A stretch of 64,000 nt of DNA from Carcharhinus longimanus (Eukaryota): positions 61,227,369-61,291,368 of the forward strand of contig JASCQW010000190.1 of NCBI GenBank assembly GCA_030264375.1, in the 5' to 3' direction. Numbering within the stretch: position 1 is the first letter of the stretch; the number at the start of each line of letters is the position of its first letter. Shown here piece by piece: positions 18,001-64,000 of this stretch. The position numbers are program-made.

Positions 18001-21000
18001 CACACACACACACACACACGCAGTATTACCAACAGAACCAACTCCGCGGACGTACACATTTCCTCCAGGGCTTGGTGTTGGCAAAACATTGGTTTGGATA
18101 TTCTGCAGGTATGTACTTATTTCGTCAATATTTATTTGATACATCCAATTAAATTGCCATTATTCCTTAAAACATGCACGGCACGTTGAACTATTATGTT
18201 CAATTGAACAACGATGCGGAATAGCTGTCATCGTTATAGTTCGTTGTATTAAATAACATTTGAGTCCGAAACATAGTTGAATGAGTTGGAGAGCTTTGAG
18301 CTAAATGAAACATACTTCATTTCGACTGGGACTTGGGAAAACGCAGCCAGACGCTGTGACGCTAAGCGTGTCTCTCTTGATATTTCCAATTCTGCTCTTC
18401 GATATTACGTGTCATTTCCTCTGGTTCACGTCAGAGTAAATGATTATATCTCTATGCGAATCACCGTGCTGTTTGGCAGAGAAGACGTGGCTGCCTGTTC
18501 TCAAATATGTCTGGGCTCAATGTTGGCATTTTAATGCGGATCATAGCCATCTTTTGTACAGGTTGTTTTATTTATTCCTGTCTTGTTTAATGCCCATGTC
18601 TATTTGTTATCTTGTGAACTGTACTGCTACTGTGTGTCTTTCATACAATCATTATTCTGTTTTATAATAGCTGGCATTCGCGCTAATTTCCAAGTCTCTC
18701 AAGCTCCTGAAAACACGAACGCTGTCTTGGGCACAAACGTCACCCTCTATTGCACGTTCCCTATTTTTCAAAATGTATTAAATGTGGAAGTTTACTGGTG
18801 GAAACTGGGTGAAATCGGATTTCTGCACAGAAGTCCAGATAACAGGAAGATATTTCTCCGCTTTAAGCAAGGGGGTGCTTCATTTCAGCTCCTGAATATC
18901 AGTGTCCGCGATGCTGGTGTGTATTACTGCGGTGTCAAAACCGTGGAAAACAGGACTGCAAATGGAACCGGCTCAACGATCAAAGTATCTGGTAGGTGAC
19001 ATTCTGGCACGAGAAAAAGGAAAGCTCATAGATAATGTGGTGTTGCCAAAATTTCTTAAATTCAAATTGTTTATATATTGGAACAGACATATCCATATCT
19101 ATGTATTGTTTGTTTTCAGGCAGCAGTAACGTGGTTCAGTTAATCGAACGTCGTCGTACCAAGATATATACAGTCGTTGTTCTATGTGTACAGTAGAAAA
19201 TTGCCATACCTATTTAACATGATTTATTGGTTCTTACATCAGCACACCTAGATTTCATTTAAAGTGCCTCGGAAACTGATCGAACAATGCCCCTACTTTG
19301 GGGTTAACATGAATGAGCTGCACTATCCGGATAAAAGCCATATCACGATTTCTTATAAATGCATTGTTCCCTCAATAAATATTTGAACCGTCTAACAAAG
19401 GTGTGAACCAAACGCGAGCCAAACATTTGGTAATGAGCTTGTAAGATTAATCGCTACTGAGAAGTCTGCACAAAATTATTTTTTACAACTCTATGGAAAT
19501 CTTTAAGTTAGGAATGCTTAGAGTGGATTTTCACAGTCCTTCTATGTTATGAAATAATACCTTGCCTAAACTCAATTATGCAAGGAACTCAATTAACTAT
19601 AACCAATATGTGACGAGAGCCTAAATTCATTCAACTATAGCCTATGGCCCGGGATAGATATTGTTTACACTATAGTTATGTTCCCATAGTACTATATATT
19701 ATGAATCAACAATCTTTGATCATTGCCTATTTCAATTTGCTCAACAAGACCCTTTTTGAAAAGTCTTACCGAAAAAGAGAGAAACATGCAACAGACAATG
19801 GAGACATTGGATCAATTATGTTTGCACAGCTTCTTTGTAAAGTGCAATTATTAGTCCTAATTCCCAATGCAGTTTCCCAATAACCCTCGAATCTATGTTC
19901 AAACACTAACAAATATGTTGTTAACTGATTTCCATGCAAGGAATACAAATTTGTTGCAGTTACTTAACGCTCATGGAGATCACATTGGATAAAGAAAATG
20001 TAAGTTATGCAATCAAGAGAAAACTAACCCACATTATTATTCTTTGTTTTGTTTCTACTCTTTGCAGTTCCACCAACCCCGTTGAAGATTTTTCCCAAAG
20101 TACGTGAAGTAGACTCTTCTTTCCTTGATCTTCTATGCAAAACCAGTGAGTTTTACCCAAATGTGCTCAATCTCAGTTGGTACGAAGATGGAATTGAGAT
20201 CAGGAACAGCACAGTGACAACGAAGTCATTGAACATAAATGGACTTTATGAAGTTTCAAGTACATTAAAGAGGACGCAACCTGTCAGAAGCACAACTGTT
20301 TACACCTGTCAGGTTTCTCACGTCACACTCCCTGTCCCAGCTAAAGTGGAATTTACTCTTCTGAATCCCAGGCAAGGTAAGGACCGGCATCCTTAACAAC
20401 TCACTGAACTGGAGATACACTACTGTGCATTCACATTGTAACTTAAGATTGGTGGGGCACACACTAGCTTAAAATACGTTTCAAACATATAGCGTAGATT
20501 TGGAATCATGTAATAACTCCAACGTAAGTGAATGCAAATTCCCCCAATTCGGCAACGTTTTATTGTTACTGGTTGATTCGCCAAGGAGCTTAAATACATT
20601 ACTCTAAACACGTTTATAAAATTATTCTTTATAATTGAGTGTTTCAGAAATTGCAGCTGCAGTCTCAAGACAGAAATTGTACGCAACTTAATAAAATAGG
20701 TGTTTCCAAAAAAAAAGAGGATCTGGTGAATTATCTGGGATTCTCAATCGTTTAATGGCAAAAATGCGAAACCGAAGTGATCATTACAGTTGGATGATGT
20801 TACCTCCTTAGTTTCTTATGTAGTGTGTTTTGTTTGTATTTTATACCATTTTACTTTCGAATTAATCGGAGTTATCTGCAAACAACTCCATTATCTTGAA
20901 GATTTGCTCACATCAACTAACCGGAGGCCTCTGTTACTATTGCAACTATCGTATTTTTCTTTGGACCTTTCTCTAAAATCAAATTGAAGCGTCAAAACTT

Positions 21001-63000: not shown

Positions 63001-64000
63001 TGGGACCCAGGGAAGTTTAATCGATCGGAAGGCAACCAAGTTGATATGCGTTTTTATATTCATCTGGGTATCTTCAAGATTAATAGAGGATGAATTTTCA
63101 GTACTGGTGAACAGTACTCTGTTGTCTAATGGAGGATGGCAATGACTGAGATCCTTAAGATTTCTGCGCCTGCACCCAAATTGGTGAAGAGATTATTTCC
63201 AAGTTCACTTGAAATGAAATGAAATGCTTCCACTGCTGCCTTGAAATTGCTGCACTCACAGAAGTTTTGTGAAGCGCTGTCTATTACAATGTTTTGACGA
63301 ACATTAGACTTCTAACACATCGAGCTAATGATTTTTTCTAACAATCTTTATACAGACTAAAACAATTCCACGGGAAAGTAAGGTGACCTACGCTGCTCTA
63401 GCGATGGCAGCTCCAAAGAAAGCAGATAAGGCTAATTATAAAGAGAAGAGTACAGTTTACGGTCAGATTCGCATGGAAAAGCAGAGAGCAGACGCTGGTT
63501 ACACGCAAGGAAAGGACGAGTAATATTTTCATTCAATGCAGAAGCCTCTGTTATTGATACGTATCGAGAAATGCGACAGCTTATGCAAATACCGCGAAAT
63601 GAGGCAGAGAACGACAGTTCAGTGAAATACTATAAACCAACATTAAAATAAAAGAAACGACTCGTTCAGTAATTTAGAATCAAAAACTTGCATTTTCAAG
63701 TACAGCGGATGAATTCTGCTGGTTCAGTGTGAAGTAAGTCTGATGTAATGACTCCTCATAACGCCGGAAAATCGGACTACGAAACCTTCCACCGTTCTAC
63801 ATTGACATGATAGCCTATACTATTATCTGAAACCTTCTCTGGTCATTGTATCATTAATCTTATCACTCGAAGTGCAAAGTTTTGTCACTGGCCCAAGGTG
63901 GGGTTGGGGGAAGGGAGCAGCGTGATTAGGGGCGCAACGGAAGGAGAACAAATACTGTTGACTTCCAATAAATCACTTACTTTCGGAACTTACTGCGGTT

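What the first reader, a model, noticed from the sequence alone, without database searches (positions are those of the whole stretch)
18507..63523. Tandem family of non-rearranging VJ-C1 inhibitory receptors in a probable shark genome
Seen in sequence: two paralogues with leader, V, C1, TM, 44-nt linker and tyrosine-motif tail exons. The V (321 nt), TM (111 nt) and linker (44 nt) exons are identical in length. The G strand with its GxG motif (NGTGS) is already inside the V exon, and I saw no recombination signals. Established: C1-set domains are largely limited to Ig/TCR, MHC, B2M, tapasin, SIRP and a few relatives; germline-joined VJ domains occur in NKp30, SIRP, CD28/CTLA4 and teleost NITRs; a VJ-C1 receptor is the proposed pre-RAG ancestor of antigen receptors. 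Inference: this is an innate SIRP-like or antigen-receptor-precursor-like inhibitory receptor cluster, possibly uncharacterised in elasmobranchs. I cannot assign orthology.
[Added by the scan's program, not by the reader: the finding's places include an assembly gap (unread letters, written N; its length is only estimated) at 25182 to 25281, 30571 to 30670, 37959 to 38058, 40496 to 41112, 44582 to 44681. Whether the letters on both sides are continuous or in frame is not known: test that first.]
Basis: partly seen in the sequence, partly recalled or inferred. Interest (0 to 1): 0.85.

Follow-up and report, generated by a model that had tools for sequence, protein, structure and literature searches.

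The report
Two shark VJ-C1 inhibitory receptor genes
The window holds two neighbouring shark genes for antibody-like but non-rearranging cell-surface receptors with inhibitory tail motifs; they belong to a large gene family found across sharks, rays and chimaeras that has only automatic names in the databases.

Summary
Gene A (18507-30378, 6 exons, 337 codons) and gene B (52705-63523, 7 exons) lie on the + strand. Each has leader, one-exon VJ-type V (321 nt), C1-set (309/312 nt), TM (111 nt), 44-nt linker and tyrosine-motif tail exons. No coding exon touches an assembly gap and no recombination signal abuts a V exon.

Three corrections. (1) Intron 3 of B begins TT, not GT, at the conserved position, so B as assembled cannot splice C1 to TM in frame; 367 aa is conditional. 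(2) A and B are old paralogues (V 36%, C1 45% identical) of two subfamilies that each span sharks; B's also includes rays. (3) The family is not unannotated. A is 88-92% identical in V and C1 to a 337-aa Mustelus asterias RefSeq model, and 76 chondrichthyan models from 20 species match, under nine different automatic names.

Best reading: ITIM/ITSM inhibitory receptors of a cartilaginous-fish VJ-C1 family, SIRPα-like in layout, with a V domain whose nearest solved relative, in one sister subfamily, is NKp30. I could not read the shark NCR3 paper (Kinlein 2021), so overlap with that family is open.

The parts
18507..18561 (+). Gene A exon 1: ATG and leader (MSGLNVGILMRIIAIFCT), ends in phase 1
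   Evidence: Read. 16 of 18 residues identical to the Mustelus model P0005. Donor CAG|GTTGTT.
18671..18991 (+). Gene A exon 2: VJ-type V domain, 321 nt, with the G strand (NGTGSTIKV) in the same exon
   Evidence: Pfam V-set 34.2 bits. Family V profile E 4e-45. 92% identical to P0005 over 105 columns. No RSS.
20068..20376 (+). Gene A exon 3: C1-set domain, 309 nt (YTCQVSH)
   Evidence: Pfam C1-set 48.5 bits. Family C1 profile E 3.5e-50. 88% identical to P0005.
23422..23532 (+). Gene A exon 4: stalk and transmembrane segment, 111 nt, no charged residue in the span
   Evidence: Hydropathy scan, sequence. 76% identical to P0005 over 38 residues.
24703..24746 (+). Gene A exon 5: 44-nt cytoplasmic linker (VCRYVDTSELREQQ), phase 1 in, phase 0 out
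   Evidence: Sequence. Matches P0005 GVCRYVDTSELREQQ. Splice sites.
30205..30378 (+). Gene A exon 6: tail with one canonical ITIM (LTYASL) and C-terminal VIYTET; stop TAA at 30376-30378
   Evidence: Sequence. 69% identical to P0005 over 58 residues. Motifs.
52705..52753 (+). Gene B exon 1: ATG and leader (MLSSGMCFSVLALVFT), ends in phase 1
   Evidence: Sequence. Weak match to the Heterodontus leader. Donor CAG|GTTCCA.
52920..53240 (+). Gene B exon 2: VJ-type V domain, 321 nt (GNGTGSKLSV in the exon)
   Evidence: Pfam V-set 37.2 bits. Family V profile E 1e-44. 60% identical to Heterodontus P0012. No RSS abutting.
53896..54207 (+). Gene B exon 3: C1-set domain (YTCLVTH). At the conserved exon end the intron starts TT (54208-54209). 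The GT at 54207-54208 would give phase 0 and a stop inside the TM exon. Read-through stops at 54231-54233.
   Evidence: Pfam C1-set 44.8 bits. Family C1 profile E 2.4e-49. Donor table. Frames.
59859..59969 (+). Gene B exon 4: stalk and transmembrane segment, 111 nt, no charged residue in the span
   Evidence: 50% identical to P0012 over 48 residues.
60754..60797 (+). Gene B exon 5: 44-nt linker (VQKNDKGLKYPDQE)
   Evidence: Chosen by eye from the AG...GT, phase-1-to-0 open candidates, as the one resembling Heterodontus GVKNDGERANSPEQQ and GVQNDGARSNSPEQS. It has a pyrimidine-rich acceptor. tblastn did not find it.
62335..62433 (+). Gene B exon 6: first tail exon, TPYAAL and TVYAQ(T) tyrosine motifs
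   Evidence: Sequence. 48% identical to P0012 over 44 residues. Motifs.
63356..63523 (+). Gene B exon 7: second tail exon with ITIM VTYAAL and ITSM TVYGQI, tyrosines 23 residues apart; stop TAA at 63521-63523
   Evidence: Sequence. 53% identical to P0012 over 55 residues. Motifs.

Best explanation
A and B are two neighbouring members, from two old subfamilies, of a multigene family found across cartilaginous fish. The family encodes non-rearranging type I membrane receptors.

Proposed mechanism (inferred):
- A germline-joined VJ-type V domain binds a ligand that is still unknown.
- One C1-set domain acts as a spacer.
- The transmembrane segment is uncharged.
- The cytoplasmic tail carries an ITIM (A: LTYASL; B: VTYAAL) and, in B, an ITSM (TVYGQI) 23 residues downstream, plus a second, weaker tyrosine pair.
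- After tyrosine phosphorylation, such tails recruit SH2-domain phosphatases (SHP-1/SHP-2) and damp activation of the cell that carries them.

In layout and tail, the proteins work like SIRPα or PD-1-type inhibitory receptors. In V-domain ancestry, the family's nearest solved relative is NKp30, seen in a sister subfamily.

Gene B as assembled has lost the canonical donor that joins C1 to TM. It would give a soluble V-C1 product or be a recent pseudogene, unless that base is an assembly error or a polymorphism.

Shown: exon structure, domain types, motifs, family membership and family range. Inferred: ligand binding, phosphatase recruitment, cell type, expression.
For: Gene structure
- Pfam gives V-set and C1-set above cut-off for all 4 Ig exons.
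- The VJ motif lies inside the V exon, and no RSS abuts either V exon.

Match to existing gene models
- A matches the 337-aa Mustelus asterias model P0005 in every exon.
- B matches the 374-aa Heterodontus model P0012 in V, C1, TM and both tail exons.

Family size and range
- The family profile finds 77 proteins at E<=1e-5. 76 of them come from 20 chondrichthyan species, including the chimaera Callorhinchus and skates/rays.
- An exhaustive V-profile search plus local re-scoring gives 103 V domains at 80 bits or more: 2 from the window, 72 named and all chondrichthyan, 29 unnamed. The next best scores 54.8 bits.

Trees
- A sits in a 5-row shark clade (SH-aLRT 96 for C1, 98 for V).
- B sits in a clade of 16 (C1) or 15 (V) rows; the C1 clade holds both sharks and batoids (99, 97).

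Nearest known relatives
- The family member P0081 has human NKp30 as its best single-domain solved match (E 6.7e-6, full V length).
- The AF2 model of the Mustelus orthologue has block-mean pLDDT of about 62-92 across the two Ig domains. Its best Foldseek matches are antibody light chains, i.e. V-C1 units (E 4e-16).
- The nearest ESM Atlas clusters are SIRPα (0.96).

Tail
- The ITIM-ITSM tyrosine spacing of 23 residues fits the tandem-SH2 spacing I recall for PD-1, SIRPα and PECAM-1. That figure is from my own knowledge, not from a call.
Against: - No transcript, protein or ligand data exist here, so function rests on motifs alone.
- A has only one canonical ITIM. The second motif that is conserved in relatives (TEYAEL/TEYAQL) reads TENAQL in A, so the tyrosine is lost.
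- B's intron-3 donor is TT, so the membrane-bound inhibitory form of B is not encoded by the sequence as assembled.
- The window's own V exons do not list NKp30 or SIRP among their best 60 solved matches. Apart from multi-Ig-domain chains, V-A's best matches are pIgR domains and PD-L1 V, and V-B's include antibody V domains. The NKp30 link is therefore transitive, through a sister subfamily.
Confidence: 0.7

Rival explanations
1. The genes are the cartilaginous-fish orthologues of SIRP (SIRPα-type myeloid inhibitory receptors that bind CD47), with one C1 domain lost or not yet duplicated.
For: - 25 of 77 family hits are auto-named SIRPα-like or SIRPβ1-like by NCBI.
- The nearest ESM Atlas clusters are SIRPα (0.96).
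- VJ-type D1 followed by C1.
- B's tail has four tyrosine motifs in two pairs, as I recall for SIRPα (recalled, not from a call).
- A skate model, P0015, has V-C1-C1.
Against: - There is one C1 exon per gene, not two.
- No SIRP chain appears among the best 60 solved matches of any of the four Ig exons or of the two family profiles.
- The same family also gets eight other automatic names.
- No tree with real SIRP sequences could be built.
Confidence: 0.15
2. The genes are direct relics of the pre-RAG antigen-receptor precursor, in the sense of UrIg/UrIg2, i.e. closer to Ig/TCR than to any innate receptor.
For: - VJ plus C1 is the architecture proposed for the precursor (PMC10751288 passages; PMC12227049 sections 4 and 7).
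- The C1 exons hit UrIg2 (9dmx; whole-chain E 1.1e-17 for B and 4e-14 for A) and Ig heavy-chain constant domains.
- Foldseek's best matches are light chains.
Against: - The best single UrIg2 domain scores only 27.9 bits (i-E 1.9e-5). The whole-chain score sums three C domains, as it does for Ig heavy chains.
- The V exons do not hit UrIg2 within their best 60.
- UrIg is secreted with 3 C domains, and UrIg2 has 9-11 C domains (PMC12227049).
- Light chains dominate any V-C1 search of the PDB.
- Linkage to the MHC or to the Ig/TCR complex cannot be read from this window.
Confidence: 0.08
3. The genes are B7-family ligands (B7H6/PD-L1-like V-C proteins) rather than receptors.
For: - 10 of 77 family hits are auto-named NCR3 ligand 1-like and 1 is named CD276 homolog.
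- V-A's best single-domain solved matches are PD-L1 V (E 4.9e-5), B7-H4 and B7-H3.
- A's C exon also hits C2-set_2 at 23 bits.
Against: - The J-like GxG(S/T)xLxV G strand is invariant in the family. It is not general in the CD28 family; that it is not typical of B7 V domains is recalled.
- C1-set outranks C2-set_2 for A (48.5 vs 23 bits), and B has no C2-set_2 hit.
- P0081's best single-domain match is the receptor NKp30, 100-fold better than PD-L1.
Confidence: 0.07

Closest known systems
RefSeq gene models of the same family in other cartilaginous fish. Examples: Mustelus asterias 'immunoglobulin lambda-1 light chain-like' (P0005, 337 aa) and Heterodontus francisci 'tyrosine-protein phosphatase non-receptor type substrate 1-like isoform X1' (P0012, 374 aa).
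   Same: - Same exon-by-exon layout: leader, VJ, C1, TM, linker, tail.
- A is 92% (V) and 88% (C1) identical to P0005. B is 60% (V) and 58% (C1) identical to P0012.
- Same invariant motifs: WW(K/R)xG, DxGxYYC, NGTG, PPTPL, YxCxVxH.
   Different: - These are uncurated, automatically named predictions.
- The window's B copy carries a TT in place of the conserved GT donor after C1.
- No close (about 85-90% identical) Mustelus counterpart of B was among the hits. The nearest Mustelus B-type model, P0074, aligns with B's C1 at roughly 60% by my reading, and it lacks a V domain.
SIRPα (signal-regulatory protein alpha, PTPNS1)
   Same: - VJ-type V domain followed by C1-set.
- Uncharged TM.
- Tail tyrosine motifs in pairs, predicted to recruit SHP-1/2.
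- Nearest ESM Atlas clusters (0.96).
- The commonest automatic name for the family.
   Different: - One C1 domain, not two.
- No SIRP chain among the best 60 solved matches in any search.
- Orthology, CD47 binding and synteny are untested.
NKp30 (NCR3), including the published shark NCR3 family (Kinlein et al. 2021; title and reference seen only as a citation, abstract recalled, text not held).
   Same: - Non-rearranging VJ-type V domain.
- A family member from sawfish (P0081, auto-named NCR3-like) has human NKp30 as its best single-domain solved match (E 6.7e-6).
- Some unnamed family hits go from V straight to TM, without a C1 domain, as NKp30 does (P0123, P0173, P0180, P0162).
   Different: - A and B have a C1 exon, no charged TM residue and ITIM tails. 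Mammalian NKp30 is V-only and activating (recalled).
- The window's own V exons do not reach NKp30 within their best 60 matches.
- Whether the eight published nurse-shark NCR3 subtypes are this family could not be checked.
UrIg and UrIg2 (Flajnik et al. 2023, 2025)
   Same: - Elasmobranch, non-rearranging, single-exon VJ followed by C1-type domains, with a split leader.
- The C1 exons hit the UrIg2 structure 9dmx.
   Different: - UrIg is secreted with 3 C domains. UrIg2 has 9-11 C domains (PMC12227049 sections 4 and 7).
- The genes here have one C1 and an ITIM tail.
- C1 similarity is at the level of Ig heavy-chain constants. There is no V similarity within the best 60 matches.
PRARP (Fu et al. 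2019: non-rearranging IgSF genes of chicken and other non-mammals)
   Same: Listed in print alongside NKp30 and SIRP as joined-VJ IgSF genes (PMC11599192 passage; PMC10751288 passage).
   Different: Nothing could be compared.

Membership tests
Chondrichthyan VJ-C1 family (uncurated RefSeq models) | V domain scoring at family level against the family V profile, with WW(K/R)xG, DxGxYYC and NGTG | tested here: met
   A scores 150.9 bits and B 148.7 bits. Family members score 80 bits or more; the next best non-member scores 54.8.
Chondrichthyan VJ-C1 family (uncurated RefSeq models) | C1 domain beginning PPTPL, with YxCxVxH, nesting inside family clades | tested here: met
   164.6 and 161.5 bits. 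A falls in a 5-row clade (SH-aLRT 96) and B in a 16-row clade (99).
Rearranging Ig/TCR | V segment ending after the CDR3 cysteine with a flanking RSS, and a separate J segment | tested here: not met
   The G strand is encoded in the V exon. None of the 20 weak RSS-like sites abuts a V exon.
SIRP | VJ-type membrane-distal V domain | tested here: met
   GTGSTIKV and GTGSKLSV lie inside the V exons.
SIRP | Two membrane-proximal C1-set domains (V-C1-C1) | tested here: not met
   One C1 exon per gene; only 2 C1 exons among 2733 ORFs of the window.
SIRP | Tail with four tyrosines forming two ITIM pairs | tested here: inconclusive
   B has TPYAAL/TVYAQ(T) and VTYAAL/TVYGQI, of which 2 are canonical. 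A has only LTYASL.
SIRP | Nesting with tetrapod SIRP in V and C1 trees; conserved synteny; CD47 binding | not testable with these tools
   No SIRP sequence could be obtained. The only indications are a look-alike score of 0.96 and automatic names.
NKp30 / NCR3 | Non-rearranging VJ-type V domain with specific sequence affinity to NKp30 | tested here: inconclusive
   The family member P0081 has NKp30 as best single-domain match (E 6.7e-6). The window's V exons do not list NKp30 in their best 60.
NKp30 / NCR3 | V-only ectodomain (no C domain) | tested here: not met
   Both genes have a C1-set exon.
NKp30 / NCR3 | Charged TM residue for an activating adaptor (mammalian form; recalled) | tested here: not met
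   The TM spans VIYIGTAVAFVFLLMVAITGSYC and YLLISAASCGGFVSLVLCIITL have no charged residue.
NKp30 / NCR3 | MHC linkage | not testable with these tools
   The window holds no framework gene. No Ig exon or gene-like ORF was seen outside A and B: the flanks were checked with the family profiles and by reading the ORF lists.
UrIg / UrIg2 | Three or more C1-type domains after the VJ domain | tested here: not met
   One C1 exon per gene. Domain counts of UrIg and UrIg2 come from PMC12227049.
B7 family | V domain without a J-like G strand, plus a C2-set_2/C1-like C domain | tested here: inconclusive
   The J-like motif is present. C1-set outranks C2-set_2 (48.5 vs 23 bits for A; none for B). However, PD-L1 V is the best single-domain match of V-A.
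PRARP | Sequence nesting with chicken or bony-fish PRARP | not testable with these tools

The most novel reading that the evidence does not exclude
The family is an as yet undescribed receptor system of cartilaginous fish: the ancestral VJ-C1 form of NKp30. It would be kept as long-tailed ITIM members (such as A and B) alongside short-tailed or V-only relatives. On this reading, tetrapod NKp30 is a C1-less survivor of a VJ-C1 receptor of the kind invoked as the antigen-receptor precursor.
Probability: 0.25. Interest if true: 0.7.

Novelty: new member of a known kind. Interest (0 to 1): 0.45.

Why it matters
Non-rearranging VJ-C1 genes are the proposed raw material for Ig and TCR, and few are known in the oldest jawed vertebrates.

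This window gives a clean, fully resolved genomic example of two such genes side by side. It also shows four things about their family:
- It is large: 103 V domains at family level.
- It is old: sharks, rays and chimaera.
- It has no curated name: nine conflicting automatic names.
- It is tied through its V domain to NKp30 and through its layout to SIRPα.

That makes it a concrete candidate set for trees, synteny and ligand work on how innate VJ receptors relate to antigen receptors. It is not a new kind of gene, and much of it may already be covered by the published shark NCR3 work that I could not read.

Tried and rejected
- DNA-level comparison of A and B (blastn) found no exon similarity. 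The paralogy is visible only at the protein level.
- Searches of solved structures with single exons and with family profiles are swamped by multi-domain Ig proteins and antibodies. They could not rank NKp30 against SIRP for the window's own exons. Only the P0081 query was informative.
- The exhaustive representative search lists many giant multi-Ig proteins among its best 150.
- Papers not held: Fu 2019 on PRARP, Flajnik 2023 on UrIg, Flajnik 2012 on B7H6/NKp30, Kinlein 2021 on shark NCR3, Ohta and Flajnik 2015. Supplements were not consulted.
- Literature searches for 'UrIg', 'PRARP', SIRP/shark/nonrearranging, NCR3/shark, VJ-C1, NKp30/B7H6/shark/ITIM/SIRP and 'shark NCR3' found no readable paper describing a VJ-C1-ITIM family in cartilaginous fish.
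- A weak C1-start-like ORF at 55371-55451 (E 0.04-0.24; E 1.7 against the profile) was rejected as chance or a relic.
Searches were made exon by exon, and the fold used the Mustelus database protein instead.
- No complex prediction was run, because no binding claim is made.

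
Full report
**What is there**

On the + strand the window carries two complete-looking Ig-superfamily receptor genes. I read every exon from the sequence and tabulated lengths, phases and splice sites.

| Exon | Gene A | nt | Gene B | nt |
|---|---|---|---|---|
| Leader | 18507-18561 | 55 | 52705-52753 | 49 |
| V | 18671-18991 | 321 | 52920-53240 | 321 |
| C1 | 20068-20376 | 309 | 53896-54207 | 312 |
| TM | 23422-23532 | 111 | 59859-59969 | 111 |
| Linker | 24703-24746 | 44 | 60754-60797 | 44 |
| Tail | 30205-30378 (with TAA) | 174 | 62335-62433 | 99 |
| Second tail | none | | 63356-63523 (with TAA) | 168 |
| Total | 1014 nt, 337 codons plus stop | | 1104 nt, 367 codons plus stop | |

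- Gene A's introns are all GT-AG, with phases 1,1,1,1,0.

**The gaps, tested first**

The N runs were listed.
- 25182-25281 lies inside intron 5 of A.
- 30571-30670 lies 193 nt after A's stop codon.
- 37959-38058, 40496-41112 and 44582-44681 lie between the genes.
- B contains no gap.

No coding exon abuts a gap and no frame has to be read across one. A hidden extra exon in A's intron-5 gap is not needed, because a 337-aa Mustelus asterias model aligns to A's six exons from end to end.

**Domain identity**

- Pfam gives V-set at 34.2 and 37.2 bits (cut-off 26) for the V exons.
- Pfam gives C1-set at 48.5 and 44.8 bits (cut-off 21) for the C exons. These carry the YxCxVxH signature (YTCQVSH, YTCLVTH).
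- The V exons run through the G strand (GTGSTIKV, GTGSKLSV, i.e. GxG(S/T)x(L/I)xV), so V and J are germline-joined.
- A scan for heptamer-spacer-nonamer signals found 20 weak sites in 64 kb on both strands. None is inside or abutting a V exon.
- Profiles of the family's V and C1 domains, run over all 2733 six-frame ORFs of 15 aa or more, find two V exons (E 4e-45, 1e-44) and two C1 exons (E 3.5e-50, 2.4e-49). Nothing else scores better than E 0.014.

The window therefore holds exactly two members, unless an exon is lost in a gap.

At the exon end conserved in relatives (...NRNT-G | G-TITHYLL, compare Heterodontus ...YHST-G | G-ENNHYLL), B's intron begins TT. The context is CAG|TTAAGC, against AAG|GTAAGG in A.
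- The context is what a G-to-T change at intron position +1 would leave.
- The GT one base upstream (ACA|GTTAAG) is phase 0 and leads to a stop after eight codons of the TM exon.
- Of the four phase-1 GT or GC sites in the last ~90 nt of the C1 frame (54138, 54153, 54180, 54198), none matches the consensus at more than 4 of 9 positions.
- Read-through ends at 54231-54233 (...NRNTVKQSDRGI*).

As assembled, B would give a soluble V-C1 product or none. Its TM, linker and tail exons are still open, well spliced and 48-53% identical to Heterodontus. So the change is recent, polymorphic or an assembly error. RefSeq models of relatives that end just after C1 exist (P0007, P0010, P0011), so soluble forms may be normal in this family.

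**Relatives**

Searches were made exon by exon.
- A's C1 exon finds Mustelus asterias 'immunoglobulin lambda-1 light chain-like', 337 aa, at 89% identity. Against that model, A's leader, V, C1, TM, linker and tail all align in order. Identity is 92% for V and 88% for C1 in the tree alignments.
- B's V exon finds Heterodontus, Scyliorhinus and Leucoraja models at 51-70%. The 374-aa Heterodontus model P0012 matches B's V, C1, TM and both tail exons.
- A profile of ten such database proteins returns 77 proteins at E<=1e-5. 76 of them come from 20 chondrichthyan species: sharks, skates and rays, and the chimaera Callorhinchus milii. The 77th is a whale Ig kappa light chain at E 3e-12.

NCBI's automatic names for this one family:

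| Automatic name | Hits |
|---|---|
| SIRPα-like | 22 |
| Ig lambda-1 light chain-like | 13 |
| Tapasin-related-like | 12 |
| NCR3 ligand 1-like | 10 |
| Uncharacterised, hypothetical or Ig-like domain-containing | 11 |
| SIRPβ1-like | 3 |
| MHC class II β-like | 3 |
| CD276 homolog | 1 |
| NCR3-like | 1 |

The family thus has no curated identity. Within a species, the hits sit on one large contig: all 14 Heterodontus hits, all 5 Mustelus hits and all 6 Heptranchias hits.

An exhaustive V-profile search of 1.84 billion representatives was re-scored locally. It gives 103 V domains at 80 bits or more: 2 from the window, 72 named and all chondrichthyan, and 29 unnamed. There is a clear gap to the next best, at 54.8 bits. 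In the C1 tree, the 20 or so of these unnamed rows that carry a C1 domain mostly fall inside chondrichthyan clades.

**A and B are old paralogues**

They share 36% identity in V, 45% in C1 and 28% in the tail.
- In both the C1 and V trees, A sits in a five-row clade with Mustelus, Scyliorhinus torazame, Heptranchias and Heterodontus (SH-aLRT 96 and 98).
- B sits in a clade of 16 (C1) or 15 (V) rows; the C1 clade includes batoids (SH-aLRT 99 and 97).
- V and C1 give the same placement, so there is no sign of exon shuffling.
- These are quick trees on about 105 columns with SH-aLRT support only. Deeper branching is unresolved.

**What known family is it nearest to?**

- By whole-protein features, SIRPα. 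The ESM Atlas clusters score 0.96 for the Mustelus orthologue.
- By fold, a V-C1 unit like an antibody light chain. The AF2 model of the Mustelus orthologue has block-mean pLDDT of about 62-92 across the Ig domains and below 50 in the tail. Its best Foldseek matches in the PDB are light chains (E 4e-16, 18-25% identity). Fabs dominate that library, so this says 'V-C1' and little more.
- By C1 sequence, Ig heavy-chain constants and the shark UrIg2 structure 9dmx. The best single UrIg2 domain reaches only 27.9 bits.
- By V sequence, the window's exons are not specific. V-A is nearest to pIgR domains and PD-L1 V (4.9e-5), and V-B to antibody V domains and various multi-Ig chains. Neither NKp30 nor SIRP is in the best 60.
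- A family member from a sister clade does show a specific link. P0081 from sawfish is a V-only isoform that NCBI names NCR3-like. Its best single-domain solved match is human NKp30, over the full V domain (E 6.7e-6). Shark V-NAR scores 1.1e-4, TCR Vα 6e-4 and PD-L1 8e-4.
- Members of that sister clade also carry C1 domains, for example Mustelus P0044.
- Some unnamed family hits go from V straight to TM, as NKp30 does.

I therefore read the family as NKp30-related in its V domain and SIRPα-like in layout, but a member of neither. It fails V-C1-C1 for SIRP. It fails V-only and a charged TM for NKp30. It fails three or more C domains for UrIg.

**What is in print**

- UrIg and UrIg2 are the described elasmobranch non-rearranging VJ-C1 genes (PMC12227049; I read sections 4 and 7 and passages).
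- PMC10751288 treats NKp30 and PRARP as 'VJ genes' and UrIg as the novel VJ-C1 gene (passages).
- A shark 'NCR3 family' of eight divergent subtypes was published by Kinlein et al. 2021. I know its abstract only from memory and saw its reference only as a citation. The paper is not held. Nor are Fu 2019 (PRARP), Flajnik 2012, Flajnik 2023 or Ohta and Flajnik 2015.
- Seven full-text searches found no readable description of a VJ-C1-ITIM family in cartilaginous fish.
- No nurse-shark protein was among the 77 named hits. This is weak evidence that the published subtypes are not simply these genes.
- Whether the family is already described therefore stays open. Supplements were closed and may bear on this.

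**Mechanism (inferred)**

- Both TM segments lack a charged residue.
- A's tail has one canonical ITIM (LTYASL). A second motif conserved in relatives has lost its tyrosine (TENAQL).
- B's last exon has an ITIM (VTYAAL) and an ITSM (TVYGQI) with tyrosines 23 residues apart. The exon before it has TPYAAL and TVYAQ(T), 22 residues apart.
- From my own knowledge, such spacing suits tandem-SH2 phosphatases, as in PD-1, SIRPα and PECAM-1.
- The likely action is ligand binding by the VJ domain, tyrosine phosphorylation, then recruitment of SHP-1/2 and inhibition.
- A Mustelus paralogue with a short tail and an Arg in the predicted span (P0041) hints at activating partners, as in paired receptor families. 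This is a lead only.

**Verdict**

The genes are not a new kind. They are members of an old chondrichthyan family that is already predicted but uncurated, and one of the two is defective as assembled. Interest is moderate. It would rise if the family proves to be undescribed and to be the VJ-C1 ancestor form of NKp30.

Noticed in passing
window 44256-44581 and 52108-52434: A 326-nt stretch about 270 nt upstream of B's start codon is repeated at 93.6% identity directly before the assembly gap at 44582-44681. It could be the 5' flank of a lost third copy, a local duplication or an assembly artefact. No match continues after the gap.
   Followed up: partly
window 22710-26063, 47833-48158, 58515-58837, 60166-60238: A short interspersed repeat occurs in both orientations (66-84% identity) in the introns of A and B and between the genes. 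Its ORF (…GGNWSTRNKSAQTRGQHA…) also forms the C-terminus of a Scyliorhinus canicula isoform model of this family (P0011, …GGNWSTRRKPTQTQGEHAEQTVT). That suggests an exonised repeat or a model artefact.
   Followed up: no
window 32016-32792 and 48381-49174: An 809-column match at 76% identity between two intergenic stretches, presumably a dispersed repeat.
   Followed up: no
window 27099-27551 (-), 31447-31872 (+): Degenerate retroelement pieces. One is a weak reverse-transcriptase match (RVT_1, E 0.0013, below cut-off). The other is an ALKBH8_N-type match (31.8 bits) in intron 5 of A and just beyond A.
   Followed up: partly
window 44700-51600: A GC-rich block (46-51% GC, against about 40% elsewhere) with long open frames rich in G, P and R on both strands. 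The one frame tested has no Pfam match. It lies between the last gap and B's upstream region.
   Followed up: no
window 55371-55451 (+), in intron 3 of B: A short ORF piece, VMLPPSPLKISSLQTVNDSYL, resembles the start of the family C1 exon (E 0.04-0.24 by tblastn; E 1.7 against the profile). It is chance or a decayed exon relic.
   Followed up: partly
related proteins P0015 (Amblyraja radiata, 493 aa) and P0017 (Scyliorhinus torazame, 413 aa): A skate model has two almost identical C1 domains in tandem (V-C1-C1, the SIRP-like count). A catshark model has two V domains before the C1. Domain number therefore varies in the family, or these models contain assembly duplications.
   Followed up: no
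related protein P0074 (Mustelus asterias, 284 aa): A B-type Mustelus model keeps only the first residues of the V region and then goes straight to C1. The V exon seems missing or skipped there, a second sign that B-type genes decay or are mis-modelled in this lineage.
   Followed up: no
window 9957-11560: CA-rich, microsatellite-like sequence giving long His/Thr-rich frames, with three N runs (6999-7098, 10273-10284, 11428-11527) in the first 18 kb. No gene-like ORF was seen there.
   Followed up: no
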